Numbered from the stretch's first letter, positions 4,509 through 47,487 are shown. The stretch is DNA of 64,000 nucleotides from Patescibacteria group bacterium (GCA_004321885.1 SCQK01000014.1:75646-139645); one strand, 5' to 3'. Numbers and translations are program-made. The notes: a model not told the origin generated them from the letters alone.

Positions 4509-5837
4509 ATGTCTAGAAAAAGAGGGAAAAAGGTTTTGGCGCGAAAAAAATTGAAGGTTACGAAGCGCCAAGCGCCAAAGCGCGCCGTAAAAAAAATCAA
4601 GCGGGTCAAGAAAAAAGCGCGCGCCTCCAAAGGCCGCAAAATAAAAAAGACGTTTAGGTCCGCGAAAAAGCCTGCCCATGCGGCAGGCAGGCCTGTTTTT
4701 GTTAAAGGTAAAAAATCCATACCGCCGCTGGAAGTTATCGCCGAGCCGACCGGCGAGCAAATTTGGGCGCTCATTGCCAAGGGGCGCAACCGCGGTTTTA
4801 TCACCCAGATGGAATTGGAGCAGTTATTCTCTCGTCCCGAGCGCTATTTAGATTTGTACGAGGGTTTTATAGAAACGTTGGATAAAAACGGGGTCTCGCT
4901 GGTAGAGCACGTCGGCGGTCTTTTGGCCGACAAAAAAGACAAGCAGATAGTTTTGAAACAATTTCAGGGAGAACAACCGGACATGGATTCACCTTTTGAT
5001 TTAGGGCAAATTTCTTCGGATTCAATTCAGATGTACTTGCGCGAAATCGGCAAGATTCCGTTGCTTACCGGCGAGGAAGAAGTGTCTTTAGCCAAGCGTA
5101 AAGAGCGCGGCGATAAAGAGGCCGAGCAGAAATTAATTTCGGCCAATTTGCGCCTGGTGGTTTCTATTGCTAAAAAATTTATCGGCAAATCCCTGTCTTT
5201 GCTGGATTTGATTCAGGAAGGCAACATCGGCCTGTTTCGCGCCGTCAAAAAATTTGACTACCGCAAGGGCTATAAATTTTCCACCTACGCCACCTGGTGG
5301 ATTCGTCAGGCCATTACCCGCGCCTTGGCGGACCAGAGTCGCACTATCCGCATTCCGGTGCACATGGTGGAAACCATCAACCGCTTCCAGCAGGTGCAGA
5401 GGCGGCTGTTGCAGGATTTGGGGCGCGACCCCACGCCCGAAGAATTGGCCGCCGAGATGGGCGAAGAGGTGGGCAAGATAAATCACATCATCAAAATTTC
5501 GCAGGAGACCGTGTCTTTGGAAATGTCCGTGGGCGACGACGATGACGATGATTCGTCTTTGCAGGATTTTGTGGAGGACGTGAAAAACTTGTCGCCGGAC
5601 CGCGTGGCCGGCATGGAGATTTTGCGCGATTATGTCAAAGACGCCATCAAAGACCTGTCCCCGCGCGAGCAGAAAATTTTGGAAATGCGCTTTGGCCTCA
5701 CCGACGGCGTAACCCACACCCTGGAAGAAGTGGGCAAGGAATTTGACGTGACCCGCGAGCGCATCCGCCAGATAGAAGCCAAGGCCCTGGAAAAAATCAA
5801 AGCCATGGGCATTATCAGCAAGTTGAGGGATTATTAA
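4509..5837 (+). CDS. rpoD: RNA polymerase sigma-70 factor RpoD with an unusual lysine/arginine-rich N-terminal extension
   Basis: Region 2.4 [16 protein letters not shown] and regions 3 and 4 are conserved. It lies directly after dnaG, the classic arrangement. The first 70 aa are almost entirely K/R. Confidence 0.9.
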
Positions 5838-8654: not shown

Positions 8655-9986
8655 TCAAATTTTTATTTCTTTGATTTTATTTTGTAAAGTTTGTTTTGAT
8701 TTTACTCGCACCCGCACAAATTCCGGCGTATATCCCGCGAAGTAGCCGGATTTTTTTTGTTCAAACAGTACTGGGCGGGTTTTGCCGGTGAATTTGGCCG
8801 CGAATTTTTTGGCCTCGGCTTTGGAAATTTTGAGCAGTTTTTTTACGCGTTCGGTTTTGATTTTGTCCTGCACTTGGTTTGGCATTTTGGCCGCGGCAGT
8901 GCCAGGGCGCGGAGAAAAAGGGAAAACGTGTATTTTGGCAAAGCCCCCGCCAAAGGCGGGTCCGTCTTGGGCGGACATTTTTTTTACAAACGCGCAGGTC
9001 TCGGTGAATTCTTTTTCGGTCTCGCCCGGGAAGCCGACGATAATGTCGGTGGTAAAAGAAAACAGGGGATTGGCCTGGCGCAGTTTTTGAACAATTCCAA
9101 GATATTGTTTCGCGTTATATCCGCGCCGCATCCGTTTGAGCATTGTGTCCGAGCCCGATTGCAAGGACAAATGCCAATGCGGCATCAATCTGTTTTGTCC
9201 CCCCTTTTTAAGGGGGGAATAAAAGGGGGGTAAGAATAATTTTATTAATTTTTCCGAAATCAGCCGCGGGTCCAGCGAACCGAGCCGGATGCGCTCTATT
9301 TTTGTTTCTCGTAAAATTTTTTTCAGCAGTTCGGCCAAGTCTCCCCCACTGCCAGAGGGGGGGACGAAGGGGGGGTGGGAGCTGTCTTTGTATTGGCAAA
9401 TATTTACTCCGGTCAGTACCGCTTCTTTATAGCCGTCTTTTTCCGCTTCTTTGATTTTTTTTATCACCGCCTCGGATGGCACACTTCGCGTTCGGCCGCG
9501 GAAAGATGGAATAATACAATAGGCGCAGTTAAAATTACAGCCGGTTTGGATTTTGATGAGAGTGCGTGTTCTATCATTGCGTAGCCGAGCGGTCGGATGT
9601 GTTCGTAGCGCCTTATGCCGCCGCAGCGGCATGGCCGAGGCCTCGCGGCCGAGGGAAGCGAGAACACATCCGACCGCTCCTCTGCGAGCTTCGCAATGGC
9701 TCACAACTTCCTCATTCCCTCTCGCCACAAAATCAATCTCGGGCAAATCCTTGTTTTCCAGACAGCCAACCGCGATTACGTACGCCCCGCGCCGTTTGGC
9801 CCGCCGAATCATCTCGCGCGTGGTCTGACTGGCGTCCACGGTCACTCCGCAGGCGCGCACCACGGCTACGTCTTCGTGCGCGCCAAAAAGCACGACAGAA
9901 AAACCTCGCTGTACGAGGTCTTTTTTCAGTTCTTCTGTCTCGGCTTGATTCAATTTGCACCCCAGGGTGTGGAATGAAATTTTCAC
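8655..9986 (-). CDS. radical-SAM methylthiotransferase, MiaB/MtaB/RimO family, carrying three in-frame repeat insertions
   Basis: MKISFHTLGCKLNQAETEEL (UPF0004 domain), the radical-SAM cysteine motif CNFNCAYCIIP, and a C-terminal TRAM-like end. Three GC-rich palindromic segments are inserted in frame. Confidence 0.8.
   Translation of the reverse strand: MKISFHTLGCKLNQAETEELKKDLVQRGFSVVLFGAHEDVAVVRACGVTVDASQTTREMIRRAKRRGAYVIAVGCLENKDLPEIDFVARGNEEVVSHCEARRGAVGCVLASLGREASAMPLRRHKALRTHPTARLRNDRTRTLIKIQTGCNFNCAYCIIPSFRGRTRSVPSEAVIKKIKEAEKDGYKEAVLTGVNICQYKDSSHPPFVPPSGSGGDLAELLKKILRETKIERIRLGSLDPRLISEKLIKLFLPPFYSPLKKGGQNRLMPHWHLSLQSGSDTMLKRMRRGYNAKQYLGIVQKLRQANPLFSFTTDIIVGFPGETEKEFTETCAFVKKMSAQDGPAFGGGFAKIHVFPFSPRPGTAAAKMPNQVQDKIKTERVKKLLKISKAEAKKFAAKFTGKTRPVLFEQKKSGYFAGYTPEFVRVRVKSKQTLQNKIKEIKI
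9196..9236. repeat. family-A GC palindrome (CCCCCCTTTTTAAGGGGGG...AAAAGGGGGG) in frame in the miaB-like gene
   Basis: Translates as PPFYSPLKKGGQ within the ORF. Confidence 0.7.
9336..9382. repeat. family-A element with CCCCC...GGGGGGG arms and a GGGGGGGTGGGAGC tail, in frame in the miaB-like gene
   Basis: Translates as HPPFVPPSGSGGD. The same tail motif recurs at 46831-46843 and 53875-53888. Confidence 0.7.
9585..9678. repeat. 94 bp structured insert inside the miaB-like gene: 18 bp perfect inverted repeat (GAGCGGTCGGATGTGTTC / GAACACATCCGACCGCTC) around a GC-rich 56 bp core
   Basis: Inverted repeat read directly from the sequence. It is translated in frame as EVVSHCEARRGAVGCVLASLGREASAMPLRRHKALRTHPTARL. 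Confidence 0.7.
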
Positions 9987-16884: not shown

Positions 16885-17013
16885 TTCCGGGGTCGTCCAA
16901 TGGCAAGACAGAGGCCTTTGAAGCCTCTTATCCAGGTCCGAATCCTGGCCCCGGAACACAGTTAATTGTGCAGTCGCTTTTAAGGCGGCTTTTTGGTATA
17001 ATGCCAGAATCGT

Positions 17014-17466
17014 ATGGAAATTAATTATTCAAGAGCCAACAGGCGCGATAAGCAAGATGTTTATGAGCTTAGCTTGTTGTTGAACAAAGGGGACGATACC
17101 AAAACAACCAAAGACATAGAAGAATCTGTTAATAGGGCGCTGAAAAATAATTTGGTGTGGTCGGCGAAAGACGAAGACAGAATCATCGGTTATGTTCTTT
17201 GTGAATTGTTTGATGAGACCCAATTGAATTTTCCGAACTCAATTTTTATTTCCGAACTTTATGTAGTTGACGCGTTTCGCAAGCAAGGAGTTGGTAAAGA
17301 GCTCGTTAAAATGGTGCTATCCAATAAATTTCCAAAAAAGTATTACTATTTTTCCGTAACACACGATCCTAAGGCGTTTTATTTAACTGATTTTTATAAA
17401 TCCTGCGGGTTTGAAGAAAAGGGCATAACGAATGCGGGAAATATAAAATTAACGAGAAAAATATAA
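17014..17466 (+). CDS. GNAT family N-acetyltransferase
   Basis: LYVVDAFRKQGVGKELVKMVL is the acetyl-CoA-binding motif A region. Confidence 0.55.
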   Translation: MEINYSRANRRDKQDVYELSLLLNKGDDTKTTKDIEESVNRALKNNLVWSAKDEDRIIGYVLCELFDETQLNFPNSIFISELYVVDAFRKQGVGKELVKMVLSNKFPKKYYYFSVTHDPKAFYLTDFYKSCGFEEKGITNAGNIKLTRKI

Positions 17467-17483
17467 TTAACATCAAAAATAAT

Positions 17484-18323
17484 ATGGAGAAAACAAAAAT
17501 CGCAATTTTTAAGGGCAAAAAAGTTCGCAAGATTCTATTTCAAAAAGAGTGGTGGTTTGTCATAAATGATGTCATTGAAATGTTGACGGATTCAGGTGAT
17601 CCAGCCCAATACTTTAAGAGATTAAAAGAAAGAGACGAGGAGCTGGCAAAAATCGTAGACAAAGGGGGGGTACAATTTGTACCACCCCTCATGCTTGTTG
17701 TAGAAACTGCCGGTGGCAAGCAAAAAATGTATTGCTGGAATACTGAGGGTATTTTTCGTCTTGTACAATCAATCCCGTCGCCAAAAGCCGAGCCATTTAA
17801 GCGCTGGCTGGCCAGGGTGGGCTATGAGCGTGTGCAGGAAATTGAGAACCCGGAATTGGCCACTAAACGAACGCGGATGTTATACAAGTTAAAAGGCTAT
17901 CCTGATAGTTGGATAGAAAAACGAATGCGCGGCATTGAAGTGCGCGAAACCCTGACTGACCAGTGGCAAAAACACGAAGTGAAACTGCAAAAAGAGTACG
18001 AAATACTAACCGCCGAAATCGCCCGTGCCACTTTCGGCCTTACTCCAAGCCAGCATAAAAAAGTTAAAGGTTTAAAAAGAGAAAATCTGCGCGACCACAT
18101 GAACGACTTGGAGTTGATTTTTTCCATGCTTGGCGAAGCCGCCACCACGGAAATCGTCCGCAACGAACATCCGCTTGGATTTGTGAAAAATAAAAAAGTT
18201 GCCAAACGCGGCGGCGGCGTGGCCGGTTTGGCCAGAAAGAAGATGGAAATAGAAACCGGTAAAAAAGTAGTGAGCAAAGAAAATTATCTGCCGCTGATAA
18301 AAAGAAAAAAGCGGTTAAAATAA
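17484..18323 (+). CDS. Bro-N domain protein (DinD/antirepressor-like)
   Basis: N-terminal IAIFKGKKVRKILFQKEWWFVINDVIEML matches the Bro-N fold signature. The C-terminus is basic. Confidence 0.4.
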   Translation: MEKTKIAIFKGKKVRKILFQKEWWFVINDVIEMLTDSGDPAQYFKRLKERDEELAKIVDKGGVQFVPPLMLVVETAGGKQKMYCWNTEGIFRLVQSIPSPKAEPFKRWLARVGYERVQEIENPELATKRTRMLYKLKGYPDSWIEKRMRGIEVRETLTDQWQKHEVKLQKEYEILTAEIARATFGLTPSQHKKVKGLKRENLRDHMNDLELIFSMLGEAATTEIVRNEHPLGFVKNKKVAKRGGGVAGLARKKMEIETGKKVVSKENYLPLIKRKKRLK

Positions 18324-29074: not shown

Positions 29075-29713
29075 CTAAAACAATATCGCCGCATGCGGCA
29101 TTCTCGCTTTCAAAGTCCTAATCGCGCTCTTGGGAATGGGATTGCCGATAAGGTTCAGCTCGGTCAGATTTTTTAATCCGGCGATGCCGGCGGGAACGGA
29201 CGTTAATTTGTTGTAAGAAAAATCCAAAATTTGCAGTGATTTAATTTCTAAAATTTTTGCCGGGATTGAGCGGTAGGTATTTTTGGCCAGAGATAAATGT
29301 GTGAGTTTTTTCAGGTTGGCGATTTCATCGGGCATGGTGTCAATTTTGTTTTCGCCGTAGTTTAGGGTTTCCAGGTTGCCGAGCTGGCCGATTTCGGCCG
29401 GGATGCCGGTCATATTATTATTGCTCGCGTCCAAGAATTTCAAATTTTGCAAATGGCGGATTTCGGCCGGCAAGGCGCCGGTGAGATTGTTGCCGGACAA
29501 GTCCAAAATTTCCAGCGCGGTTTTGCTAAAAATATCCATGGGTACTTTGGATAAGCCGCGCTCGCTAAGGTCAAGCTGGGTCTGGCTTTGCGGTATGCGC
29601 GGCGCGAAAGTTTTCAGCGCCCCATCCCGCGATTTGGCAAAGTATAAAATACCGGCCGCGGCCACAACGAGCAAAGCAATAATCGCTCCAAGCGTTACTT
29701 TTTTTTGAGGCAT
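29075..29713 (-). CDS. leucine-rich repeat protein, membrane anchored
   Basis: N-terminal TM helix (TLGAIIALLVVAAAGIL), then at least 7 LRRs (LDLSGNNLTGALPAEI, LDASNNNMTGIPAEI and others). Start at the ATG at 29713; the upstream ORF extension is made of palindromic repeats. Confidence 0.7.
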   Translation of the reverse strand: MPQKKVTLGAIIALLVVAAAGILYFAKSRDGALKTFAPRIPQSQTQLDLSERGLSKVPMDIFSKTALEILDLSGNNLTGALPAEIRHLQNLKFLDASNNNMTGIPAEIGQLGNLETLNYGENKIDTMPDEIANLKKLTHLSLAKNTYRSIPAKILEIKSLQILDFSYNKLTSVPAGIAGLKNLTELNLIGNPIPKSAIRTLKARMPHAAILF

Positions 29714-29727
29714 ATATTTGTGGTTCC

Positions 29728-29800
29728 TCTCCCCTTTACAAGGGGGAGGCTTGTCACCACACCAAAAATTTTGGTGTGGTGACAGAGAGGGGGTAATCCT
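29728..29800. repeat. nested palindromes: family-A CCCCTTTACAAGGGGGAGG, then CACCACACCAAAAATTTTGGTGTGGTG (an empty inverted-repeat pair of the tRNA-Gly element family), then AGAGAGGGGG
   Basis: Read directly in the intergenic region between the LRR gene and the SHOCT gene. Confidence 0.65.
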
Positions 29801-29801
29801 C

Positions 29802-30050
29802 TCACATTTCAATATCTTTTCTCATTTCCGCGAATTGCGCTTTGGTTATTTCGCCTTTGACGTATCTCTCTTTGAGAATGGCGAGCGCGTCGGCGCGCGT
29901 TGGGCTAGTTCTGGGCGGTTCGTGGTCGCGGCGCTCGCGCGAACCCTGCACCAGTGAAACAATACCCCATATCAGCGCCATCCAAAAAAGCAGCATAAAC
30001 ACCGGGCCGATAATTCCGTATCCTCCCCAGTTGGTAAATGGGAACATCAT
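29802..30050 (-). CDS. SHOCT-domain small membrane protein
   Basis: TM helix plus a C-terminal LAILKERYVKGEITKAQFAEMRKDI, the SHOCT motif. Confidence 0.5.
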   Translation of the reverse strand: MMFPFTNWGGYGIIGPVFMLLFWMALIWGIVSLVQGSRERRDHEPPRTSPTRADALAILKERYVKGEITKAQFAEMRKDIEM

Positions 30051-30057
30051 AAATTAT

Positions 30058-30092
30058 TGTCATTCCGGTCGCCTGCGGCGGCCGGAATCCAG
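30058..30092. repeat. family-B element tgtcattccggtcgcctgcggcggccggaatccag
   Basis: The same core also occurs at 47453-47487 in the opposite orientation. Confidence 0.7.
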
Positions 30093-30139
30093 TTAATTAG
30101 CTCATTCTATCTTAACAGATTATAATTTTTTGTCCATAA

Positions 30140-30168
30140 TTGACATTTTCGCTATTTTTTTCTATAAT
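30140..30168 (+). promoter_or_regulatory. consensus sigma-70 promoter TTGACA-17 bp-TATAAT
   Basis: ttgaca at 30140-30145 and tataat at 30163-30168. It reads into a family-B element, a tRNA-Asn 5'-half copy, the GIY-YIG gene and tRNA-Asn. Confidence 0.6.
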
Positions 30169-30172
30169 AGTT

Positions 30173-30200
30173 GTCATTCCGGACTTGATCCGGAATCCAG
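30173..30200. repeat. family-B element tgtcattccggacttgatccggaatccag placed 4 nt after the -10 box
   Basis: Read directly. Confidence 0.7.
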
Positions 30201-30218
30201 CTCCTTTGAAAATAAATT

Positions 30219-30262
30219 CCGGGGTAGCGCTCCGCCAGCCGGCGGAGGTAGCGCAGTTGGCT
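30219..30262 (+). repeat. partial copy of the tRNA-Asn 5' half (acceptor plus D-arm) with a 13 bp hairpin inserted in the D-loop
   Basis: TCCGGGGTAGCGC-tccgccAGCcggcgga-GGTAGCGCAG compared with the tRNA TCCGGGGTAGCGCAGCGGTAGCGCAG at 30502-30527. Confidence 0.65.
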
Positions 30263-30511
30263 GTGTATACTGTTTACGCTATTTACAATCAAAAAAACGA
30301 TAAAATTTATATTGGACAAACAAAAGACATGGCCGAACGATTAAGGTTGCATAATGAAAAAATCCTTCTTGGTTATACTTATAGATTTGATGGAAATTGG
30401 AAATTAATTTATAGTGTACAGATCGAGAATAGACAAAAAGCTTTACAAAGAGAGAGACAACTTAAAAGTTTTAGAGGCAGAGAATTTATAAAACAATTTA
30501 TTCCGGGGTAG
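30258..30511 (+). CDS. GIY-YIG nuclease family protein (small, YhbQ/UPF0213-like)
   Basis: VYTVYAIYNQKNDKIYIGQTKDMAERLRLHNE is the GIY-YIG core. A GTG start at 30258 lies inside the tRNA-half copy, and the stop overlaps tRNA-Asn by 10 nt. Confidence 0.6.
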
Positions 30512-30573
30512 CGCAGCGGTAGCGCAGAGGACTGTTAATCCTTTGGTCGTGGGTTCGAATCCCACCCCCGGAG
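30502..30573 (+). tRNA. tRNA-Asn(GTT)
   Basis: TCCGGGG-TA-GCGCAGCGGTAGCGC-A-GAGGA-CTGTTAA-TCCTT-TGGTC-GTGGGTTCGAATCCCAC-CCCCGGA-G. Confidence 0.85.
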
Positions 30574-30578
30574 CAAAA

Positions 30579-30707
30579 ACAAAAATACTGGTAATATCCA
30601 GTATTTTTGCTTTTGCTCGGAATACACGAAAAAATACGAACGGATTTGGGCGAATTTTAGGGCGCGGGCGAAATTCCCTCCCCACACCCCTTCCTTTCGC
30701 CCGCGAA
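30579..30707. repeat. left terminal inverted repeat of the island
   Basis: See the island feature. The outermost hairpin probably also terminates tRNA-Asn. Confidence 0.7.
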
Positions 30708-30883
30708 GCGAAACGGGGGCTCTGGTGGACAAAAACTGCCAAAGAACCCGTAAAAAATGTCGGCCGAACTTTATGTTGGCCAAAAGCAAACTTTTCTCTT
30801 TGATATTGAATTACGATTGTTAAAGTGATATAATCAAGTCAATGAGCGTCCCATTCTTGCTATCTTATGTATACTATCATACT

Positions 30884-31090
30884 ATGGAAGAAAAGAAAAC
30901 AATCGGCGAAAAAATAAAAAAATGGAGAGCGAAGAAAGATTTGACACAAGACGCCTTGGCAAAAAAGGCGGATATTCCATATAGCACGATTGCTAAAATT
31001 GAATCAGATGTTATTACGAGGCCAACAATACAGACAGTGCAAAAGCTGGCCGTTGGTTTGGGTATAACACTTGATGAATTATTAAAATAG
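30884..31090 (+). CDS. XRE-family HTH protein, probable C (controller) protein of the R-M module
   Basis: TIGEKIKKWRAKKDLTQDALAKKADIPYSTIAKIE is an HTH_XRE motif, about 70 aa. An extended -10 TGATATAAT sits at 30826-30834, and the gene lies immediately upstream of the methyltransferase (stop-ATG overlap). The ORF also opens at 30842, a possible leaderless start. Confidence 0.55.
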   Translation: MEEKKTIGEKIKKWRAKKDLTQDALAKKADIPYSTIAKIESDVITRPTIQTVQKLAVGLGITLDELLK

Positions 31091-31091
31091 T

Positions 31092-31973
31092 ATGGTTAAA
31101 GGTCACAAAGTGAAAAATGAAAAAATCGATAAAAAAATAGCTTTTGGTTGGTATGGCGGTAAGTTTAGTCATCTTGACTGGCTTTTGCCGCTGTTGCCGG
31201 AAACCGATCATTTTTGTGAGCCGTTTGGTGGCTCTGCTGCCGTTATCATAAACAGAAATCCTTCTTTAATCGAAACATATAATGATTTAGATGGCGAGGT
31301 AGTTAATTTCTTCAGAGTATTAAGGGAACATCCTAACGATCTTATAAGACAAATTGGGCTTACTCCATTTTCGAGGGAAGAATTCAAATATGCTATTGAA
31401 CACGAAGATGATAAAAATCTTTCAGATATTGAGAGGGCTAGGTCTTTTTTTATCCGCGCAAGGCAGGTTAGGACTGGACTTGCTCAAAAAGCTACTTCTG
31501 GTAGATGGGCAAATTGTAAATTAACTTCCAGAGCCGGAATGTCAGGTGCGGTCTCGAGGTGGTTGGGAAGTGTTGACGGGCTAACAGAGATTGCGGAAAG
31601 GCTTTTACGAATACAAATTGAAAATGCTCCTGCAATTGAAGTTGTAAGGCGATATGATAGCCCACAGACCTTATTTTACTGTGATCCTCCGTATACACAT
31701 GATTCTCGAGGTGATATAAATGCCTATAAATTTGAAATGGACAGGGATGCGCATGTCGAACTGGCCGAAACACTAAAACAGGTTAAGGGGTTAGTCGCTA
31801 TATCGGGTTACGACTCTCCCCTAATGAACGAGCTGTATCAAGGATGGAAAAAAATCGCTGGGCCAGTAAAAAATGCAAATTCTATACAACAACCTAGACA
31901 AGAAATTTTATGGGTTAATTATAATATTAATGATAAATCTTTATGGAAAAAGCAGCAAAGATCCTTGATATAA
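31092..31973 (+). CDS. N6-adenine DNA methyltransferase, Dam/D12 class
   Basis: FxGxG motif EPFGGSAAV and catalytic DPPY (LFYCDPPYTHDS). Confidence 0.8.
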   Translation: MVKGHKVKNEKIDKKIAFGWYGGKFSHLDWLLPLLPETDHFCEPFGGSAAVIINRNPSLIETYNDLDGEVVNFFRVLREHPNDLIRQIGLTPFSREEFKYAIEHEDDKNLSDIERARSFFIRARQVRTGLAQKATSGRWANCKLTSRAGMSGAVSRWLGSVDGLTEIAERLLRIQIENAPAIEVVRRYDSPQTLFYCDPPYTHDSRGDINAYKFEMDRDAHVELAETLKQVKGLVAISGYDSPLMNELYQGWKKIAGPVKNANSIQQPRQEILWVNYNINDKSLWKKQQRSLI

Positions 31974-33064
31974 TTTTGAAAAAAACTAATGGGCATCTAG
32001 AAAAACCTTTTATAAAAAATAGGGAGATTTTGCGGAAAATAGAATTTATTTCTCATAATATTCAAAATCGAGCCGGCGTCCGCCTTATTATGTCTTGCTT
32101 ACTGGCGAAACTTGACGATCCAAAAGTTGATGTAAGAAAACCTTATACGGAGATTGGCAGTCGTGATAGTTTTTCGGGCAGAACATATGACGAGGCCTAT
32201 GTCGGCAGTTTTATCACTAAACATCACTTGCCGTGTAATCCAACAACAGCGTTTTTGACGCCAGCTCTACGTAATAGAAATATTGTACTTACGCCAAAAG
32301 TAAATTTAGTCGGCAGGCCACCAGAAATTTATCAATACGTTCTCGACCTCCTAGAATTAGTATTTAAAGGATTTCTTGCCCCAGCCATTCTGCTTGCGGA
32401 AATAATGCGACAACTTGTTCTTTTACGAGATGAAAATCAAAAACGTATAAAATCTTTGTTAAAGAATCTCGGGAAAAATGGTAGTGTGCCTCTTTCGGGT
32501 GAAGACATAATAAAACTTATTGAGCAACATTTAAATTGCAAAGGAGCCAGCAGACTTCCCGTACTTATCGTGGCCGCTGCTTACAACACTATTGGAAATT
32601 TCATCCAAGAAAAAGTATTACCTATCTTTTCTCACAATTCTGCAGATAAACAAACTGGTGCGCTCGGCGATATACAAATTACGTTAATTAATGACGAGAA
32701 TGTAGTAACTAGTTATGAGATGAAGATGAAGAAGGTCACAAAGGACGACATTGATATCGCTCTGCAAAAAATTTCGGGAGTTAAGTACAAAATAGATAAT
32801 TATATTTTTATAACGACGGATATAATAGATGATTCGGTAAAAGAATATGCGAAATCACTTTATGAGCAAACCGGCGGAATAGAGATAGTTGTCTTAGATT
32901 GTATTAGTTTTCTTAGGCATTTTATTCATTTATTCCACCGCTTCAGATTGCCATATCTTGAAGAGTATCAAAAGTTGGTGATGGGTGAAGCAGACAGCGC
33001 GGTCAGTCAGCCCCTTAAAGAGGCATTTCTTGCTCTTCGACAGGCAACAGAAAGCGCGAATTAA
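31943..33064 (+). CDS. putative type II restriction endonuclease (PD-(D/E)xK-like)
   Basis: Overlaps the methyltransferase gene by 31 nt. GDIQITLINDENVVTSYEMK fits a D...ExK nuclease motif. Its position in a C-M-R array supports the call. Confidence 0.45.
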   Translation: MEKAAKILDIILKKTNGHLEKPFIKNREILRKIEFISHNIQNRAGVRLIMSCLLAKLDDPKVDVRKPYTEIGSRDSFSGRTYDEAYVGSFITKHHLPCNPTTAFLTPALRNRNIVLTPKVNLVGRPPEIYQYVLDLLELVFKGFLAPAILLAEIMRQLVLLRDENQKRIKSLLKNLGKNGSVPLSGEDIIKLIEQHLNCKGASRLPVLIVAAAYNTIGNFIQEKVLPIFSHNSADKQTGALGDIQITLINDENVVTSYEMKMKKVTKDDIDIALQKISGVKYKIDNYIFITTDIIDDSVKEYAKSLYEQTGGIEIVVLDCISFLRHFIHLFHRFRLPYLEEYQKLVMGEADSAVSQPLKEAFLALRQATESAN

Positions 33065-33145
33065 TGCAATAAAATAGTAAAAATGCAACCTTTTTCGGTG
33101 TGCGACGTTATATTATTGGGAGCTAAATATGACGATTATTAAAAA

Positions 33146-33802
33146 GTGTTTATCTTTATGGATATTGAAGCCGAAAAAGAACAAATCGTGAAGGCCCAAA
33201 GTAATATCAAGGAGTTTGCGCCTTTATTTGATGAATATTACCCCCAAATACTTAAATATTTAATAGGGCGTATCCGCAGTGTGGAAATTGCCCAGGATAT
33301 TGCATCTGTTACATTCTTGAAAGCCTTAGAGAATATAAAAAAATTTAACTGTCGGGGGATTAGCATATCATCGTGGCTGTACCGAATAGCTACGAACGAG
33401 GTCACTACATATTTTAGAAAAAATAAAACCCTTTCACTCGATGAGATAAGGGCATGTGAAAATTTTGATCCGCCCGCTATCGGCAACCCGTACATTGAAA
33501 TTGTCCAGGCGCAGGAAAAAATTGAAAATGATAAAAAATTTTTGAATCTACAAAATGAGATTCTAAAATTACATATAAATTATCAAGAAGTCATAATGTT
33601 GCGATATTTCGAGAAAAAACAAATAAATGAGATAGCAGAAATTTTAAATAAAAGCGAGGGGACGATTAAATCTCTCCTCCATCGAGGTTTGAAAAAATTA
33701 AAAAAAAATTTTCAACTACACAACAGTGACGCCAGAACGCAACCTTTTCAAAATAAAAACGTTCTAAATATAGAACAGGTACTAGTACCCATAAAATTAT
33801 GA
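33146..33802 (+). CDS. ECF-type sigma-70 family sigma factor encoded on the island
   Basis: Region 2 (FDEYYPQILKYLIGRIRSVEIAQDIASVTFLKALENIKKF...WLYRIATNEV) and region 4 (QEVIMLRYFEKKQINEIAEILNKSEGTIKSLLHRGLKKL). Confidence 0.8.
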   Translation: MFIFMDIEAEKEQIVKAQSNIKEFAPLFDEYYPQILKYLIGRIRSVEIAQDIASVTFLKALENIKKFNCRGISISSWLYRIATNEVTTYFRKNKTLSLDEIRACENFDPPAIGNPYIEIVQAQEKIENDKKFLNLQNEILKLHINYQEVIMLRYFEKKQINEIAEILNKSEGTIKSLLHRGLKKLKKNFQLHNSDARTQPFQNKNVLNIEQVLVPIKL

Positions 33803-34041
33803 ATGACCTACAGGAGTTAGAAAAAATGTTAGAGGAGATCGAGGTTCCGTCTGTGGACTTAAATATAAATAAGGAGTTGTTGAAGAGTTACCTATTTAGA
33901 AATGAGCGGGTTGAATTTGAGAGCAGCAAACAAGATAACTCCATATTTGCCCCGCAGTTTGAATTTTTACCTTGTCCGTCATTTACGTATGATTATTTAA
34001 TTAATGATTTTAATTCAACTACATATGTCCTTAGTTATTAA
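33799..34041 (+). CDS. hypothetical small protein (positioned like an anti-sigma factor or adaptor)
   Basis: 80 aa. It overlaps the sigma gene stop and the next gene's start. No motif was recognised. Confidence 0.3.
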   Translation: MNDLQELEKMLEEIEVPSVDLNINKELLKSYLFRNERVEFESSKQDNSIFAPQFEFLPCPSFTYDYLINDFNSTTYVLSY

Positions 34042-34987
34042 TGTAACCACACCCGAAGGAATTGTGTTAGCAGCTGATAGTCGTCAAAGCTACCGCAACC
34101 AAAAAGGCGCAGCCCGTATAGGCAGCGATAACGCTTCGAAACTGTTTAAATTAAACGACCGGATAGCTGTTGCAGCTACAGGCATGGCCTTTTTACCTGA
34201 AAAAGGAATGCTTAAAAATATAAGTAAATTTATAGAACAATTTAAAAAAATTGAAATTGAAAAAATAGAAAATATATCAGTTAAGGAAACGGCAGAAAAA
34301 ATTCATGAATATTTCAAAAGTATATACAAAGTAGAAGACCAGATAAGGGCAATTGAGCAGCAAATTACAAATGATATCGCAAAAAACGGGGGTAAAATAT
34401 TGAGAACAGACGCTAAAAAAAATATAGTTATTGTAGAGTTTGAAGATGCAAATGGGAAAAAAGGTGTTGCCAACGTAGTTCTGGAGCCCTTGAATTTCAT
34501 GGTGGCTGGTTTTAATAGCAATTTCGATTCGCACGAGGTTTACACGTGTAGAATACCGGGGGGGATAGAATTAAAAAGAAATAGTAGCGTGGATAATAAA
34601 GAGTATGGCGCCTCGTGGGAAGGGCAAAATGATGTGGTAGCGCGAATTGTCTTGGGTTTTGATCCTAGGATAGGGAATATAAAATTTGTACAAGAAGCAG
34701 CGGAAAAAATTGGGAAGGATCAAATTAATGAACAGCTTAGAAATTTAGAATACGCAATACAATGGGGCACCATGACTTTGCAAGATGCTATCGACTTTTG
34801 TGTGTTAATTATAAAAACAACCTCAGCCATTCAAAGATTTTCGGATGGCATTAAAGCTGATCCTGGTGCAATCCCTGGCGTGGGCGGCTCCATCGATGTG
34901 GTGGTCATCAGACCAGAAGAGGGGTTTAATTGGGTAAGTAAAAAGAAGTTATCTATCAATGAAAATTGTTCAGAAATAAATTTTTAA
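34025..34987 (+). CDS. proteasome beta / HslV-like Ntn-hydrolase with C-terminal extension
   Basis: VINV|TTPEGIVLAADSRQSY...ASKLFKLNDRIAVAATGMA matches the N-terminal Thr nucleophile and GxxxD/R pattern of the proteasome beta/HslV family. The start could also be the ATG at 34004. Confidence 0.5.
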   Translation: MSLVINVTTPEGIVLAADSRQSYRNQKGAARIGSDNASKLFKLNDRIAVAATGMAFLPEKGMLKNISKFIEQFKKIEIEKIENISVKETAEKIHEYFKSIYKVEDQIRAIEQQITNDIAKNGGKILRTDAKKNIVIVEFEDANGKKGVANVVLEPLNFMVAGFNSNFDSHEVYTCRIPGGIELKRNSSVDNKEYGASWEGQNDVVARIVLGFDPRIGNIKFVQEAAEKIGKDQINEQLRNLEYAIQWGTMTLQDAIDFCVLIIKTTSAIQRFSDGIKADPGAIPGVGGSIDVVVIRPEEGFNWVSKKKLSINENCSEINF

Positions 34988-35011
34988 TAAATTATTTTTA
35001 ACTAATAGTTT

Positions 35012-35656
35012 ATGAAAAAACCTCTTTATATAATGCTCCATCACTCGGCTGTTTCATACGACAAAAATCCAGATCAATTTGATGCAAATAATAATTACCA
35101 TAAAGCACAGTGGAATTTTAAAGGTTCCCTTGGTTTTTATCTTGGTTACAATTACGAAATATCTAAAACCGGCCTGACACGACAAGCCCGAGCAGACGGT
35201 GAAGTTACGGCAGCATGCTATCAAAAAGATATGAACGATGGTAGGTGTATACATATTTGTATGGATGGCCACTTCGATCAAGAAAAACCAACGCCAGAAC
35301 AAATAGAGGCGTTAAGAAAATTGCTAAAACAAAAATTCGAGGAGCACAATATCAAAAGAGAGAACTTAATTTTTCATAGGGATTACGCCCCTAAAACCTG
35401 TCCGGGGTCTAATTTAGACATAAAAAATATTCGCGATCTTGCCACACCGGAAGGCAATGAATTGTACGCAGCCGCATTGACGCTTATGAAAGAGAATAAT
35501 TCACCAGCTATTTACTTTTTCGGTTTTGATAATATGTGGCACGGACTTGGGGATATGGATATTTTAAAATCATTAAAAGGAAACTATAATCCAGTAGAAA
35601 TAATGAAAGTAGAAAATCTCCCTGATAATATTTCATTTTCAATAGGCAAACAATAA
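35012..35656 (+). CDS. N-acetylmuramoyl-L-alanine amidase, PGRP/amidase_2 type (endolysin-like)
   Basis: MLHHSA...H...GYNYEI...HICMDGHFD...IFHRDYAPKTCPG matches the zinc-binding pattern of T7-lysozyme-type amidases. Confidence 0.75.
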   Translation: MKKPLYIMLHHSAVSYDKNPDQFDANNNYHKAQWNFKGSLGFYLGYNYEISKTGLTRQARADGEVTAACYQKDMNDGRCIHICMDGHFDQEKPTPEQIEALRKLLKQKFEEHNIKRENLIFHRDYAPKTCPGSNLDIKNIRDLATPEGNELYAAALTLMKENNSPAIYFFGFDNMWHGLGDMDILKSLKGNYNPVEIMKVENLPDNISFSIGKQ

Positions 35657-35777
35657 AAAGCTGCGTTTCCGCCAAAGCCGAGCGAAGCTCGGTATCCCGC
35701 CGCAACAAGTAGCGTCGGGATGAAAAACTGGAAATCGTCATTCGTCGGAGATCCCTCCGCCCAAGGCGGGCAGGCAC

Positions 35778-35905
35778 CGCGGGCGGAAGGAAGGGGTGTG
35801 GGGAGGGAATTCCGCCCGCGCCCTAAAATTCGCCCAAATCCGTTCGTATCTTTTCATAAGTCCCGAGCAAAAGTAAAAATACTGGTAATATCCAGTATTT
35901 TTTGT
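35778..35905. repeat. right terminal inverted repeat of the island
   Basis: Reverse complement of the left inverted repeat. Confidence 0.7.
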
Positions 35906-35928
35906 TACTATGTTAGTAAATAAAATTT

Positions 35929-36552
35929 ATGCTTGGCCTGACAAAATCCGAACTGAAAATTTTAAAAAGACTCAACACGCCCATAAAAATTCAGAATTTT
36001 TTGGATACCTTTCCGATAAATTGGGAAAAGAAAGGCGAGACATACATGTCGCCCGGCCGGTCGCTTGGCGCGCGCAAGATACATTGTTTTGAGGGCGCGC
36101 TTTTGGCGGCCGCGGCTTTGTGGATAAACGGCGAACAGCCGTTGCTTTTAGACCTAAAAGCCAAAGGCGACTTTGACCATGTGGTGGCGCTGTACAAACG
36201 AAACGGCTATTGGGGGGCGATAAGCAAAACCAATCACGCCACTCTGCGTTGGCGCGACCCGGTGTATAAAACCCTGCGTGAGCTGGCCGTGTCGTATTTC
36301 CACGAATACTTTGACAACAAGTTTTACAAAAAACGCCTGGTCAGTTTTTCCCGGCCGTTTAACTTAAAAAAATACGGCGCCAAGTGGATGGCGGCCGAAG
36401 AAGACCTGCACGAGCTGGTGGATGCTTTGGACCACTGCCCGCACGAAAAAATCTGCCCGCCCAAAAACGCGAAATATATCCGCCGGGCGGACAAAATGGA
36501 GCGTCGCGCCGGCCGGCTGATTGAGTGGAAAAAATCTCATCCGCGTACTTGA
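35929..36552 (+). CDS. hypothetical protein
   Basis: 207 aa ORF. No confident motif; KIHCFEGALLAAAAL could be a cysteine-hydrolase-like site. Confidence 0.4.
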   Translation: MLGLTKSELKILKRLNTPIKIQNFLDTFPINWEKKGETYMSPGRSLGARKIHCFEGALLAAAALWINGEQPLLLDLKAKGDFDHVVALYKRNGYWGAISKTNHATLRWRDPVYKTLRELAVSYFHEYFDNKFYKKRLVSFSRPFNLKKYGAKWMAAEEDLHELVDALDHCPHEKICPPKNAKYIRRADKMERRAGRLIEWKKSHPRT

Positions 36553-36708
36553 CGTTAGTAGGCGCGTCTCCGATATGGGGCGCGCTGTTTGCGCGGAGTA
36601 AGATTTTTTGCTATAATGGAAATGAGCGAAAATAATAAATTGCTTGCAGTTTACTATTGAGCGAATGACATTATATGTGGCCGTAGGCCACCTATACTAA
36701 TTTCATTT

Positions 36709-37629
36709 ATGCAAGCCCAAAGCTATCTGTTAATCGTATTCGCCGGTATTATTATCGGTTTTTTGATATTTGACCTGGGTTTTCTAAATCGTCAAAGCCA
36801 CAAAATTGAATTCAAGCCCGCTTTACTTCAGTCCATTTTTTGGATCGCGGTCGCCCTTATTTTCGGGCTTTTGATTTTAAGATTCATGGACCAAACCCTG
36901 GCCGCGGAATTTTTCAGCGCCTATGTCACCGAAAAAATGCTGTCCGTGGACAATCTGTTCGTGATGATGCTCATATTCAGCTATTTCGGTCTGGAAGAAA
37001 AGTACCACCACAAGGCGCTGTTTTGGGGAATAATGGGAGCCATCATTTTTCGCGGCATTTTTATCAGCGCCGGCTCTTTCATCGTCGGCCAGTTTCATTG
37101 GGTGCTTTACATTTTTGGCGCGATTTTAATTTACACGGCCTTCAAAATTTTGAAAGACAAAAAAGAAGAGCATATTGATTTCAGCCGCAACAAAGTTATC
37201 AGGCTGGCGCGCAAATATCTGCCCTTCACCGCCAGCCATCACGGGGGCAAATTTTTCTTCAGAGAAAAAGGCAAATTTTTCTTCACCTCGCTGTTTTTGG
37301 TGGTACTGCTCGTGGAAGCCACCGACATAATTTTCGCCGTTGATTCCATTCCGGCCGTGTTCGCCATATCGCAAAATTTATTCATCGTGTTCACCTCCAA
37401 CATTTTCGCCATCATGGGTTTGCGCGCCCTTTTCTTCCTCATAGAAAACGTCTTGCACCAATTTCACCACCTGCAAAAGGGACTGTCCTTTATTTTATTT
37501 TTCATCGGCGCTAAAATGCTTTCCGGCATTTTCGGTCTGCACATCTCTTCGCTTATCTCTTTTGGCATAATCATGTTAGCCCTCGCTTTATCCATAATTC
37601 TCTCGGTTGTGTTCCCGAAAAAGATTTGA
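36709..37629 (+). CDS. terC: TerC family integral membrane protein
   Basis: MLSVDNLFVMMLIFSYFGL and VEATDIIFAVDSIPAVFAIS are the paired TerC motifs. Confidence 0.8.
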   Translation: MQAQSYLLIVFAGIIIGFLIFDLGFLNRQSHKIEFKPALLQSIFWIAVALIFGLLILRFMDQTLAAEFFSAYVTEKMLSVDNLFVMMLIFSYFGLEEKYHHKALFWGIMGAIIFRGIFISAGSFIVGQFHWVLYIFGAILIYTAFKILKDKKEEHIDFSRNKVIRLARKYLPFTASHHGGKFFFREKGKFFFTSLFLVVLLVEATDIIFAVDSIPAVFAISQNLFIVFTSNIFAIMGLRALFFLIENVLHQFHHLQKGLSFILFFIGAKMLSGIFGLHISSLISFGIIMLALALSIILSVVFPKKI

Positions 37630-42873: not shown

Positions 42874-42902
42874 TGGATTCCGGCTCGGGGGCCGGAATGA
42901 CA
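42874..42902. repeat. family-B element (inverted orientation) tggattccggctcgggggccggaatgaca overlapping the start of the PAP2 gene
   Basis: Read directly. The ATG at 42897 lies inside the GGAATGACA arm. Confidence 0.65.
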
Positions 42903-47452: not shown

Positions 47453-47487
47453 CTGGATTCCGGTCGCCTGCGACGACCGGAATGACA
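47453..47487. repeat. family-B element (inverted) ctggattccggtcgcctgcgacgaccggaatgaca
   Basis: Same core as the element at 30058-30092. Confidence 0.7.

What the first reader, a model, noticed from the sequence alone, without database searches (positions are those of the whole stretch)
30579..35905. 5.3 kb AT-rich island with roughly 127 bp terminal inverted repeats next to tRNA-Asn: R-M module plus sigma/Ntn-hydrolase/amidase cassette, no recombinase
The left (30579-30707) and right (35778-35905) ends are inverted copies at about 90% identity. Each begins with the same palindrome AAAAATACTGG-loop-CCAGTATTTTT, and the left one starts 6 nt after tRNA-Asn. The interior is clearly lower in GC than the flanking chromosome. 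It carries a controller HTH protein, a Dam-class methyltransferase with DPPY, a putative PD-(D/E)xK endonuclease, an ECF sigma factor, a small ORF, a proteasome/HslV-like Thr-protease and a PGRP-type amidase. There is no integrase, transposase or relaxase, so it is either a non-autonomous element mobilised in trans or a long-inverted-repeat cassette of an undescribed type. This gene combination is not a standard island.
Basis: partly seen in the sequence, partly recalled or inferred. Interest (0 to 1): 0.85.

Follow-up and report, generated by a model that had tools for sequence, protein, structure and literature searches.

The report
Recombinase-less tRNA-Asn island with inverted arms
A 5.3 kb foreign, AT-rich gene island (a restriction-modification system, a sigma-factor/protease module and a cell-wall amidase) sits at the end of a tRNA-Asn gene in a Patescibacteria genome; this is an ordinary kind of tRNA-linked island that has no recombinase, and its one odd feature is that its far-end arm is repeated upside-down at the tRNA end.

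Summary
The arms at 30581-30705 and 35778-35902 are a 125-nt, 90% inverted repeat. The interior has GC 0.32-0.39 against about 0.50 in the flanks. The gene content is as described, and no recombinase was found.

The anatomy differs from a simple terminal-inverted-repeat (TIR) cassette in four ways.
- The 28-nt hairpin H has its loop in the same orientation at both ends. The outer 41 nt, degenerately about 56-61 nt from the tRNA T-loop onward, is therefore a direct repeat. This is the usual mark of integration at a tRNA 3' end.
- H is host sequence. A relative (L012) carries one identical H before the same flank gene, with no island.
- The arm has a 72-nt core that ends in a degenerate tRNA 3'-end copy. 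It recurs once, at 97% identity, at the distal end of a different recombinase-less R-M island beside tRNA-Gln in another genome (L002).
- The sigma/80-aa/Ntn triad lies next to tRNA 3' ends in three related contigs. In two of them a large serine recombinase and a DNA methyltransferase gene sit beside it.

Best reading: a horizontally acquired, now recombinase-less tRNA-Asn island whose left arm is an inverted, truncated copy of its attR-side arm. Whether the arms act as functional TIRs is unresolved. Interest is moderate.

The parts
30502..30574 (+). tRNA-Asn (GTT). This is the integration target and the proximal (attL-side) boundary of the island.
   Evidence: ARAGORN; Rfam tRNA, 73.4 bits.
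30571..30618 (.). Left hairpin with a 21-bp stem. It contains hairpin H (30581-30608: AAAAATACTGG TAATAT CCAGTATTTTT). Its left arm is the tRNA end plus trailer, and its right arm is the start of the inverted arm. It is terminator-like on the + strand.
   Evidence: Inverted repeat I4; exact 28-mer on the + strand; terminator scan.
30609..30748 (-). Left arm, an inverted and truncated copy of the right arm. It comprises an inverted trailer (30609-30615), a tRNA-3'-end-like remnant (about 30616-30641) and the 72-nt core (30634-30705).
   Evidence: The core matches the right arm at 70/72. The 5' extension is not shared (13/29).
30842..31090 (+). HTH controller (C-protein-like) gene of the R-M operon. 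The probable start is the ATG at 30884. A sigma-70-like promoter lies at 30806-30834.
   Evidence: Pfam HTH_3, 3.6e-16; PADLOC Control_protein, 1e-8; promoter scan.
31092..31973 (+). D12/Dam-class N6-adenine DNA methyltransferase (motifs FGGSAAV and CDPPY).
   Evidence: Pfam MethyltransfD12, 4.6e-21; PADLOC MTase_II, 2.3e-54; translation.
31943..33064 (+). Putative restriction endonuclease. It is SacI-like over its C-terminal ~100 aa, with a D-x13-ExK pattern (GDIQI...YEMK). It overlaps the methyltransferase gene by 31 nt.
   Evidence: Pfam RE_SacI, 23.8 bits against a cut-off of 19.3. No hit in PADLOC, PHROGs or PDB.
33084..33108 (+). ECF-type promoter TGCAACC-N16-CGT upstream of the sigma gene. 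It is invariant in the window and in three related loci.
   Evidence: Alignment A2; pattern search.
33158..33802 (+). ECF sigma factor, with the start taken at the conserved ATGGATATTGAA.
   Evidence: Pfam Sigma70_r2 and r4_2; TIGR02937; alignment A2.
33799..34041 (+). Conserved 80-aa ORF with no family match. It is translationally coupled on both sides (ATGA overlap with the sigma gene, 17-nt overlap with the Ntn gene). It could be an anti-sigma or partner protein, which is inference only.
   Evidence: The same 79-80-aa ORF with the same overlaps occurs in L006, L008 and L010.
34025..34987 (+). 320-aa proteasome/Ntn-hydrolase-like protein, widespread in Patescibacteria.
   Evidence: Pfam Proteasome, 25.2 bits against 22.4, N-terminal part only. 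More than 1400 homologs. The structure model is poor (pLDDT 59) and the fold search is not significant, although the top hits are proteasome beta subunits.
35012..35656 (+). Amidase_2 (PGRP/T7-lysozyme type) N-acetylmuramoyl-L-alanine amidase with a C-terminal extension.
   Evidence: Pfam, 2e-16; PHROG endolysin/amidase. Its homologs sit in ordinary chromosomal contexts.
35722..35874 (+). Right arm, the full-length form. It comprises a 5' extension (35722-35750), the 72-nt core (35778-35849), a degenerate tRNA 3'-end copy GTTCGTATC..AAGTCCCGAG (35842-35867) and the trailer CAAAAGT (35868-35874). It reads as the attR-side element arm.
35875..35902 (.). Right copy of hairpin H, with the same loop orientation as the left copy. 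It is host sequence upstream of the 207-aa gene.
   Evidence: An identical H in the same position occurs in the island-free relative L012.
35929..36552 (+). Conserved host gene (207 aa, no Pfam family) that marks the distal flank.
   Evidence: 7625 homologs; closest 76-85% identical.

Best explanation
The segment is a horizontally acquired genomic island, integrated by site-specific recombination at the 3' end and terminator hairpin of tRNA-Asn, just upstream of a conserved 207-aa host gene.

Its cargo is:
- a C-protein-controlled type II R-M operon (HTH, Dam-class methyltransferase, SacI-like endonuclease);
- a self-contained, autoregulated ECF sigma / 80-aa / proteasome-like module;
- a cell-wall amidase.

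The right end has attR structure. It consists of a conserved element arm (72-nt core), then a degenerate copy of a tRNA 3' end, then the host trailer and hairpin H.

The left end is the intact tRNA-Asn with trailer and H (attL side). Directly behind it lies an inverted, truncated copy of the right arm, and this copy is what creates the 125-nt inverted repeat.

The island encodes no recombinase. It is either a decayed derivative or a cis-mobilizable derivative of the tRNA-targeting integrative elements that are common in this lineage, several of which carry a large serine recombinase.

Shown: foreign composition; the direct and inverted repeat anatomy; the host origin of H; the arm shared with another island; the recurrence of the triad next to tRNA 3' ends.

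Inferred: the recombination mechanism; the origin of the left arm as a secondary inverted duplication pivoting on the palindromic hairpin; the present immobility or dependence on a recombinase supplied in trans.
For: Composition:
- GC is 0.32-0.39 inside against ~0.50 outside.

End repeats:
- The 41-nt direct repeat includes the tRNA end (family D2).
- The hairpin loop has the same orientation at both ends.
- A T-loop-to-acceptor pattern matches only tRNA-Asn (30553-30573) and the right arm (35842-35867). Both matches are on the + strand, with 0.01 expected by chance (alignment A5).

Island-free site:
- Relative L012, whose flank protein is 84% identical, has a single, 28/28-identical H followed by the same downstream sequence and gene. 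It has no island and no arm.

Arm shared with a different island:
- The arm core is 70/72 identical in L002, where host DNA is only ~65% identical to the window.
- In L002 it sits once, downstream of the last gene of a different AT-rich island (RadC-Dcm, Vsr and unknown ORFs; no recombinase).
- That island lies 3' of tRNA-Gln and carries tandem repeats of the tRNA 3' end.

Left arm is the derived copy:
- The right arm and the L002 arm share a 29-nt 5' extension (27/29) that the left arm lacks (13/29).

Triad context in relatives:
- The triad's nearest relatives (72-74% identical) end ~110 nt from the 3' ends of tRNA-Leu or tRNA-Arg genes.
- In two of the three loci they sit beside a 437-aa large serine recombinase and a ParB-N6/N4 methyltransferase.
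- The triad keeps GC 0.30-0.37 whatever the host GC.

Hot spot:
- In L013 a prophage-like element with a large serine recombinase and a type IIG R-M gene abuts the 3' end of tRNA-Asn, next to the same 207-aa gene.
Against: - Only two islands with this arm were found, and only one has both arms. The claim that the left arm is a secondary duplication rests on this n=2 comparison.
- The arm core is equally well conserved in both window copies (70/72), while the linker has diverged (7/12). This pattern suggests selection on both copies, which would fit functional TIRs or a functional palindromic attP.
- No exact pre-insertion site (tRNA-Asn, then H, then the 207-aa gene) was recovered. L012 lacks the tRNA, and L003 and L013 are rearranged.
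- The recombinase responsible is unidentified. A tRNA-derived direct repeat with a long conserved arm is more typical of tyrosine integrases than of serine recombinases.
- Only 64 kb of the genome could be searched for a recombinase.
Confidence: 0.55

Rival explanations
1. Non-autonomous TIR transposon. The 125-nt arms would be true terminal inverted repeats recognised by a transposase supplied in trans. The element would have inserted into the loop of the tRNA-Asn terminator hairpin, making a 6-bp target duplication (TAATAT).
For: - The arms are imperfect inverted repeats (90%), as in many transposons.
- TAATAT flanks both arm tips, and the island-free site L012 has a single TAATAT within H.
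- Both core copies are conserved while the linker has drifted.
- R-M units with long inverted repeats, a short target duplication and no transposase are documented (PMC2853133).
Against: - The arm tips (CCAGTATTTTT...) are identical over 11 nt, and similar over 21 nt, to the host sequence flanking the supposed target. A cut-and-paste insertion does not predict this, and the chance is about 4^-11.
- The right arm ends in a tRNA-3'-end-like copy in direct orientation to the tRNA.
- The only other island carrying the arm (L002) has one copy.
- No further copies were found in the window, 17 loci, viral contigs, the phage or plasmid collections, or exact-word scans of metagenome and genome collections.
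Confidence: 0.15
2. Island with a functional palindromic attP, mobilised by a host or helper recombinase (IMEX/CIME-like). H has an 11-6-11 architecture and would be the crossover site. The excised circle would carry arm, H and inverted arm as a ~250-bp palindrome that mimics the tRNA terminator. A host Xer-like tyrosine recombinase, or a serine recombinase from a co-resident element, would catalyse integration and excision.
For: - Two identical 28-bp sites lie in direct orientation at the ends, and one such site lies at the island-free locus.
- There is no recombinase in the island.
- H is 28/28 conserved between genomes whose flank gene is only ~80% identical, which suggests constraint.
- The central dinucleotide AT is self-complementary. 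For a serine recombinase this would allow either orientation, which would explain why the triad points away from the tRNA here but towards it in relatives. This step is inference.
- Recombinase-less, att-flanked 'cis-mobilizable elements' are a known concept (PMC3146451).
Against: - H also looks like an ordinary intrinsic terminator, which is sufficient to explain its conservation.
- It does not resemble canonical dif (my own knowledge of dif consensus sequences).
- It does not lie at a GC-skew turning point.
- No circular junction or helper recombinase was observed.
- L002 shows no palindromic arrangement.
Confidence: 0.15
3. Invertible cassette, or the product of an inversion. The inverted repeats would mediate, or would have arisen during, inversion of the 5-kb segment (duplication associated with inversion, as described in Helicobacter pylori).
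For: - Relative to the tRNA, the triad is oriented opposite to its orientation in L006, L008 and L010.
- The left arm is a truncated inverted copy of the right arm that includes host-derived trailer and hairpin sequence.
- Duplication associated with inversion is reported in H. pylori (cited in PMC4671568; the primary paper is known to me only from memory).
Against: - No invertase gene is present.
- At 90% identity over 125 nt, ongoing homologous inversion is possible but untested.
- No alternative-orientation contig was seen. Short-read assemblies break at the arm (L001), so they cannot show one.
Confidence: 0.1
4. Assembly artefact. The MAG contig would be chimeric at a repeated sequence, which would create a false inverted repeat.
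For: The source is a metagenome-assembled genome. An independent Logan contig breaks inside the right arm.
Against: - The arms differ at 12 of 125 positions, so they are not a collapsed repeat.
- The Logan contig reproduces the right junction at 100% over 6.4 kb.
- The arm exists independently in another metagenome.
Confidence: 0.03

Closest known systems
tRNA-gene-integrated genomic islands, as defined by the Islander logic (PMC4383910), including recombinase-less, att-flanked 'cis-mobilizable elements' (concept cited in PMC3146451)
   Same: - The island abuts the 3' end of an intact tRNA gene.
- A displaced, degenerate tRNA 3'-end fragment in direct orientation marks the far end.
- The composition is foreign.
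- The locus is a hot spot, with different islands in relatives.
- There is no integration gene, as in cis-mobilizable elements.
   Different: - The direct repeat continues through the tRNA trailer and a palindromic terminator hairpin.
- An inverted copy of the distal arm lies directly behind the tRNA, which gives a 125-nt inverted repeat.
- No integrase was found to prove the mechanism.
Mobile forms of R-M gene complexes without mobility genes: 'transposon-like structures flanked by long inverted repeats' and 'insertion with long target duplication' (Furuta, Abe and Kobayashi 2010, PMC2853133)
   Same: - An R-M operon with no transposase or integrase is bounded by long imperfect inverted repeats (their examples are 60/65 and 26/26).
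- Outer direct repeats align with the empty site in a related genome, while the inner inverted repeats do not.
   Different: - In their cases the outer repeat is a plain 8-bp duplication. Here it is a 28-41-nt palindromic hairpin that overlaps the inverted repeat.
- Here the cargo also includes non-R-M modules.
- Here the arm carries a tRNA-like end.
Serine-recombinase islands at the 3' ends of tRNA or tmRNA genes, for example Dehalococcoides ssrA genomic islands (PMC3146451)
   Same: - Low-GC islands lie in tandem at the 3' end of a small RNA gene, with short direct repeats of that end.
- The integrase is a large serine recombinase.
- Some islands lack the integration module.
- The triad's closest relatives in L006 and L010, and the tRNA-Asn element in L013, carry large serine recombinases.
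   Different: - The window island has no serine recombinase.
- The conserved spacer next to the tRNA in L006, L008 and L010 is unrelated to the arm found here.
IMEX elements (integrative elements exploiting Xer), which are flanked by two dif-like 28-bp sites. This comparison is from my own knowledge.
   Same: - No recombinase is carried by the element.
- Two copies of a 28-bp 11-6-11 site lie in direct orientation at the ends, and a single copy lies at the empty site.
   Different: - H has no sequence similarity to known dif sites.
- H is not at the replication terminus (by GC skew).
- H doubles as a tRNA terminator.

Membership tests
tRNA-integrated genomic island (Islander-type) | Intact tRNA gene at one end of the island | tested here: met
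   tRNA-Asn(GTT) at 30502-30574.
tRNA-integrated genomic island (Islander-type) | Displaced tRNA 3' fragment in direct orientation at the other end | tested here: met
   GTTCGTATC..AAGTCCCGAG at 35842-35867, followed by trailer and hairpin. The 41-nt repeat is 93% identical. The fragment is degenerate, with a 5-nt insertion and a 1-nt deletion. It resembles the L002 arm more than it resembles the local tRNA.
tRNA-integrated genomic island (Islander-type) | Integrase gene inside the island | tested here: not met
   All seven island ORFs were scanned with Pfam, NCBIfam, PADLOC and PHROGs, and none is a recombinase. tblastn with large serine recombinases found nothing in the window.
tRNA-integrated genomic island (Islander-type) | Island absent from the same locus in a related genome | tested here: met
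   L012 has a single H directly before the flank-gene homolog. L003 and L013 have different inserts next to tRNA-Asn. An exact site of tRNA-Asn, H and the 207-aa gene was not found.
TIR DNA transposon / non-autonomous TIR element | Terminal inverted repeats | tested here: met
   125 nt, 90%.
TIR DNA transposon / non-autonomous TIR element | Short target-site duplication of otherwise unrelated host sequence | tested here: inconclusive
   TAATAT occurs at both tips. However, the adjoining host sequence is identical to the arm tips over 11-21 nt, so the duplication cannot be told apart from a 28-41-nt att repeat.
TIR DNA transposon / non-autonomous TIR element | Multiple copies, or other elements bounded by the same two ends | tested here: not met
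   Only one further copy of the arm was found, and it is single-ended (L002). The collection scans used exact words, so diverged copies could have been missed.
TIR DNA transposon / non-autonomous TIR element | Cognate transposase somewhere in the genome | not testable with these tools
   Only 64 kb of the genome is available. No transposase appeared among the 47 window ORFs scanned with Pfam.
Type II restriction-modification system with C-protein control | Methyltransferase with SAM-binding and catalytic DPPY motifs | tested here: met
   Pfam D12, 4.6e-21; PADLOC MTase_II, 2.3e-54; FGGSAAV and CDPPY are present in the translation.
Type II restriction-modification system with C-protein control | Cognate restriction endonuclease | tested here: inconclusive
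   A 373-aa ORF overlaps the methyltransferase gene. It gives only a partial RE_SacI match just above the cut-off, with no PADLOC, PHROG or PDB match. Its activity and specificity are unknown.
Type II restriction-modification system with C-protein control | Small HTH controller protein upstream, with an operator (C-box) | tested here: inconclusive
   The HTH_3 / Control_protein-like ORF starts the operon. No C-box was searched for or identified.
Proteasome / Ntn-hydrolase fold (HslV-like Thr protease) | Ntn fold with an N-terminal catalytic Thr | tested here: inconclusive
   - The Pfam Proteasome match covers residues 13-62 only.
- A profile search against the PDB gives E ~0.2 to proteasome subunits.
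- The AlphaFold model has pLDDT 59. Foldseek top hits are proteasome beta subunits but with E >= 0.056.
- T8 and T9 are invariant in the family.
IMEX (Xer-exploiting integrative element) | Flanking sites are dif-like and lie at the chromosome dif locus | tested here: not met
   H has an 11-6-11 layout, but cumulative GC skew rises monotonically across the locus. There is no sequence resemblance to dif consensus sequences (my own knowledge).

The most novel reading that the evidence does not exclude
The conserved 72-nt arm core, with its tRNA-like end, would be the recognition module of a so-far undescribed family of recombinase-less cassettes in Patescibacteria. These cassettes would move between the 3' ends and terminator hairpins of tRNA genes, either as TIR-bounded units or through a long palindromic attP, using a recombinase supplied in trans. 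They would carry interchangeable defence and regulatory cargo.
Probability: 0.15. Interest if true: 0.7.

Novelty: new variant of a known kind. Interest (0 to 1): 0.4.

Why it matters
Little is known about how the small genomes of Patescibacteria (CPR) exchange genes. This locus and its relatives show three things.
- tRNA 3' ends are recurrent landing sites for small AT-rich islands that carry R-M systems.
- A conserved ECF-sigma / small-protein / proteasome-like module appears in several of these islands.
- Different cargos can share one conserved end module.

If the inverted arms proved functional, they would define a trans-mobilised cassette type. If they do not, the locus is a clean example of how a palindromic terminator at an att site can seed an inverted duplication.

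Tried and rejected
More copies of the arm:
- Exact-word scans of viral contigs (two words) found none. The metagenome scan found one true hit (L002). The genome collection gave only a chance hit inside a coding region (L005).
- blastn against the phage and plasmid collections found none.
- An nhmmer profile search over all 17 loci and the window found none.

Known RNA family for the arm:
- An Rfam E-value search of 29500-37000 returned only the tRNA.
- Folding shows stable hairpins. One compensatory pair exists between the two window copies, but with three sequences this is not significant.
- A short ORF runs through the arm in both window copies, but it is not kept in frame in L002 (read by eye). 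It was rejected as coding.

Phage origin of the triad:
- No relative of the Ntn protein was found in IMG/VR, with a single sequence or with a 22-sequence alignment. None was found for the endonuclease either.

Amidase as a guide to further arms:
- Its closest full-length homologs lie in ordinary chromosomal contexts without the arm.

Telomere-resolvase site:
- Rejected, because the central 6 bp (TAATAT) is not self-complementary.

dif site:
- Rejected on sequence and on GC skew.

Repeats in related islands:
- L006, L010 and L013 have no long inverted repeats, and no upstream direct repeats of their tRNA 3' ends.

Structure of the Ntn protein:
- The model was too poor to support a fold assignment.

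Full report
**1. Observation**

The inverted repeat is real. The arms at 30581-30705 and 35778-35902 are 125 nt long, 90% complementary and 5072 nt apart. A 35-mer from the arm and the 28-mer hairpin each occur exactly twice in the window, with none expected in shuffles.

tRNA-Asn(GTT) lies at 30502-30574. GC is 0.32-0.39 between about 30750 and 35750, against 0.45-0.57 on both sides, and no other extended low-GC tract exists in the 64 kb.

The gene list holds:
- HTH_3, resembling an R-M control protein
- D12/Dam-class methyltransferase with CDPPY
- 373-aa ORF with a weak RE_SacI match
- ECF sigma factor
- 80-aa ORF
- 320-aa protein with a weak Proteasome match
- Amidase_2

No recombinase is in the island. 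tblastn with two large serine recombinases found nothing in the window. Thirty further window ORFs are housekeeping or unrelated.

**2. The ends are not simple TIRs**

Both copies of the hairpin H (AAAAATACTGG TAATAT CCAGTATTTTT) match on the + strand, so the loop has the same orientation at both ends. The outer 41 nt (30568-30608 and 35862-35902, 93%) is therefore a direct repeat that begins inside the tRNA acceptor end (family D2). Only the inner ~97 nt is strictly inverted.

At the left end the stem is 21 bp long, because the start of the inverted arm pairs with the tRNA end plus trailer (pair I4).

The right arm ends in GTTCGTATC..AAGTCCCGAG. This is a degenerate copy of a tRNA T-loop and acceptor 3' strand, in direct orientation to tRNA-Asn. 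A pattern for this feature hits only tRNA-Asn and the right arm, with 0.01 expected by chance (alignment A5). The pattern was designed after seeing the sequences, so the figure is indicative only. An intact tRNA at one end and a displaced 3' fragment at the other is the standard signature of islands integrated at tRNA genes (PMC4383910, abstract).

**3. H is host sequence**

The window comes from a Patescibacteria MAG. A contig from a relative whose flank protein is 84% identical (L012) has the following order: the stop codon of an unrelated gene, 25 nt, one 28/28-identical H with the same downstream TGTTA..., and then the 207-aa gene. It has no island, no arm and no tRNA.

In another relative (L003, 83%), tRNA-Asn is followed by a hairpin whose left arm is homologous to that of H (ACAAAAATAATGG). 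A different, partly AT-rich 5.4-kb gene set then separates it from the 207-aa gene.

In a third (L013, 76%), tRNA-Asn lies 112 nt from the 207-aa gene. Its 3' end faces a prophage-like element with a large serine recombinase, a type IIG R-M gene, a superinfection-immunity gene and a terminase gene.

The tRNA-Asn / 207-aa locus is therefore a hot spot occupied by different inserts.

**4. The arm is an element module shared with a different island**

The only other copy found is in metagenome contig L002. There, 134 nt match the right end of the window island over 146 alignment columns at 85%, and match the left end over 115 columns at 85%. By contrast, host genes in L002 are only ~65% identical to the window.

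In L002 the arm occurs once. It lies just downstream of the last gene of a different AT-rich island (RadC-Dcm fusion, Vsr and three ORFs without Pfam matches; no recombinase). That island lies 3' of tRNA-Gln and is preceded by three extra direct copies of the tRNA-Gln 3' end.

Segment by segment:

| Segment | Comparison | Identity |
|---|---|---|
| 72-nt core | window right vs left | 70/72 |
| 72-nt core | window right vs L002 | 70/72 |
| Linker | window right vs left | 7/12 |
| 29-nt 5' extension | window right vs L002 | 27/29 |
| 29-nt 5' extension | window left vs right | 13/29 |

All three copies end in YCCGAG, and similarity to L002 stops exactly there.

My reading is that the right arm is the ancestral, attR-side element arm. 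It resembles a P arm joined to the element's own degenerate tRNA-end copy. The left arm is a truncated inverted copy that also took along the trailer and the left half of H.

The core can form an 11-bp stem. The two differences between the window copies form one compensatory pair in that stem, but with three sequences this carries no statistical weight. Rfam finds nothing there.

**5. The cargo modules**

The HTH, methyltransferase and endonuclease genes are tightly packed or overlapping, behind a sigma-70-like promoter.

The sigma / 80-aa / Ntn triad is a self-contained unit.
- An ECF-type promoter (TGCAACCTTTT..CGTTATA) is invariant upstream of the sigma gene in the window and in three relatives.
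- The genes are translationally coupled.
- The Ntn family has more than 1400 homologs in Patescibacteria.
- No relative was found in IMG/VR.

The three closest triads (72-74% identical) each end about 110 nt from the 3' end of a convergent tRNA (Leu-taa, Arg-gcg, Arg-ccg). The spacer between them is conserved and unrelated to the arm found here. In two of these loci the triad is preceded by a 437-aa large serine recombinase and a ParB-N6/N4 methyltransferase.

The triad stays at GC 0.30-0.37 in hosts ranging from 0.37 to 0.50. A DNA-methyltransferase gene together with the triad next to a tRNA is thus a recurring island design in this lineage. The window version lacks the recombinase, points the other way relative to the tRNA, and has gained an amidase. 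The amidase's own relatives are ordinary chromosomal genes.

**6. Mechanism**

*Best-supported.* A tRNA-targeting integrative element inserted at the tRNA-Asn 3' end and terminator. This left tRNA-Asn, trailer and H on one side. On the other side it left the arm, the pseudo-tRNA end, the trailer, H and the 207-aa gene. Because the element's tRNA-end copy is degenerate, the crossover must lie at or beyond the acceptor end, most simply within the trailer or H.

The recombinase gene has since been lost, or was never part of this unit, as in a cis-mobilizable element (PMC3146451).

The inverted left arm most plausibly arose secondarily. Possible routes are template switching or repair primed on the palindromic H, or a duplication associated with inversion (cited in PMC4671568). 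Either route would also account for the reversed orientation of the cargo. These last steps are inference.

*Rivals.* Four rival explanations remain:
- a true non-autonomous TIR element;
- a functional long palindromic attP used by a host or helper recombinase;
- an invertible segment;
- an assembly artefact, which is unlikely.

The equal conservation of both core copies keeps the first two alive.

**7. Comparison with known systems, and novelty**

The island fits tRNA-integrated genomic islands in every defining feature except the integrase. It also closely parallels the R-M 'mobile forms' of Furuta et al. 2010: R-M genes without mobility genes, flanked by long imperfect inverted repeats, or by long direct repeats that align with the empty site.

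What is unusual is the combination in one locus of:
- a palindromic host hairpin duplicated in direct orientation;
- an inverted copy of the attR arm;
- an arm core shared at 97% with a differently loaded island at another tRNA in a different genome.

I rate it a new variant of a known kind, with moderate interest (0.4).

Noticed in passing
window 30140-30511: A perfect sigma-70 promoter (TTGACA-17-TATAAT, 30140-30168) drives a degenerate tRNA-Asn 5' half (30217-30265). That half has a 16-nt hairpin inserted in the D-loop, and its anticodon stem is identical to that of relative L003. It runs straight into a GIY-YIG ORF that ends inside the intact tRNA-Asn (30502-30574). The intact tRNA has a different anticodon stem, related by compensatory changes. 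In L003 the tRNA-Asn carries a group I intron at the same anticodon-loop position (Rfam 86.7 bits). This looks like a homing-endonuclease or intron remnant followed by a replacement tRNA copy.
   Followed up: partly
L002 7105-7681: Downstream of tRNA-Gln there are three extra direct copies of its 3' end (23-42 nt). Two of them sit within ~100-nt units that are 77% alike, and each is followed by its own hairpin. This looks like tandem accretion of att sites.
   Followed up: partly
window 16886-18323: tRNA-Gln is followed directly by a short AT-rich stretch (GC 0.40) that encodes a GNAT acetyltransferase and a Bro-N domain protein. It may be another small tRNA-adjacent islet.
   Followed up: partly
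L006 8964-9084; L008 8955-9074; L010 8946-9064: A conserved ~110-nt spacer lies between the Ntn stop codon and three different tRNA 3' ends. It consists of a terminator hairpin followed by GATGTGTCTCGGTCAC...TTCAGAAACCGCTCACTACA. It is probably the att-side arm of a second family of islands, the ones that carry a serine recombinase.
   Followed up: partly
L013 3952-4064 (- strand): A LOOT RNA (Rfam RF03000, 83 bits) lies about 145 nt upstream of the large serine recombinase gene of the prophage-like element next to tRNA-Asn.
   Followed up: no
window 30059-30089, 30173-30197, 42876-42901 (-), 47456-47486 (-): A dispersed family of small hairpins, GTCATTCCGG-loop-CCGGAATC, has four copies in the window (0 expected by chance). 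Two lie just upstream of the tRNA-Asn promoter region and one lies 45 nt after tRNA-Pro. None occurs in the 17 related loci.
   Followed up: partly
L006 4915-4974 / 5574-5633 and 9148-9170 / 9249-9271: A 60-nt direct repeat (93%) brackets a 105-aa ORF just upstream of the serine recombinase gene. Separately, the 5' 23 nt of tRNA-Leu is duplicated exactly, 101 nt away.
   Followed up: no
window 33084-33108 and L006/L008/L010 upstream of the sigma gene: An ECF-type promoter motif, TGCAACCTTTT-N12-CGTTATA, is invariant across four genomes. In the relatives it is preceded by a strong terminator hairpin that the window lacks.
   Followed up: partly
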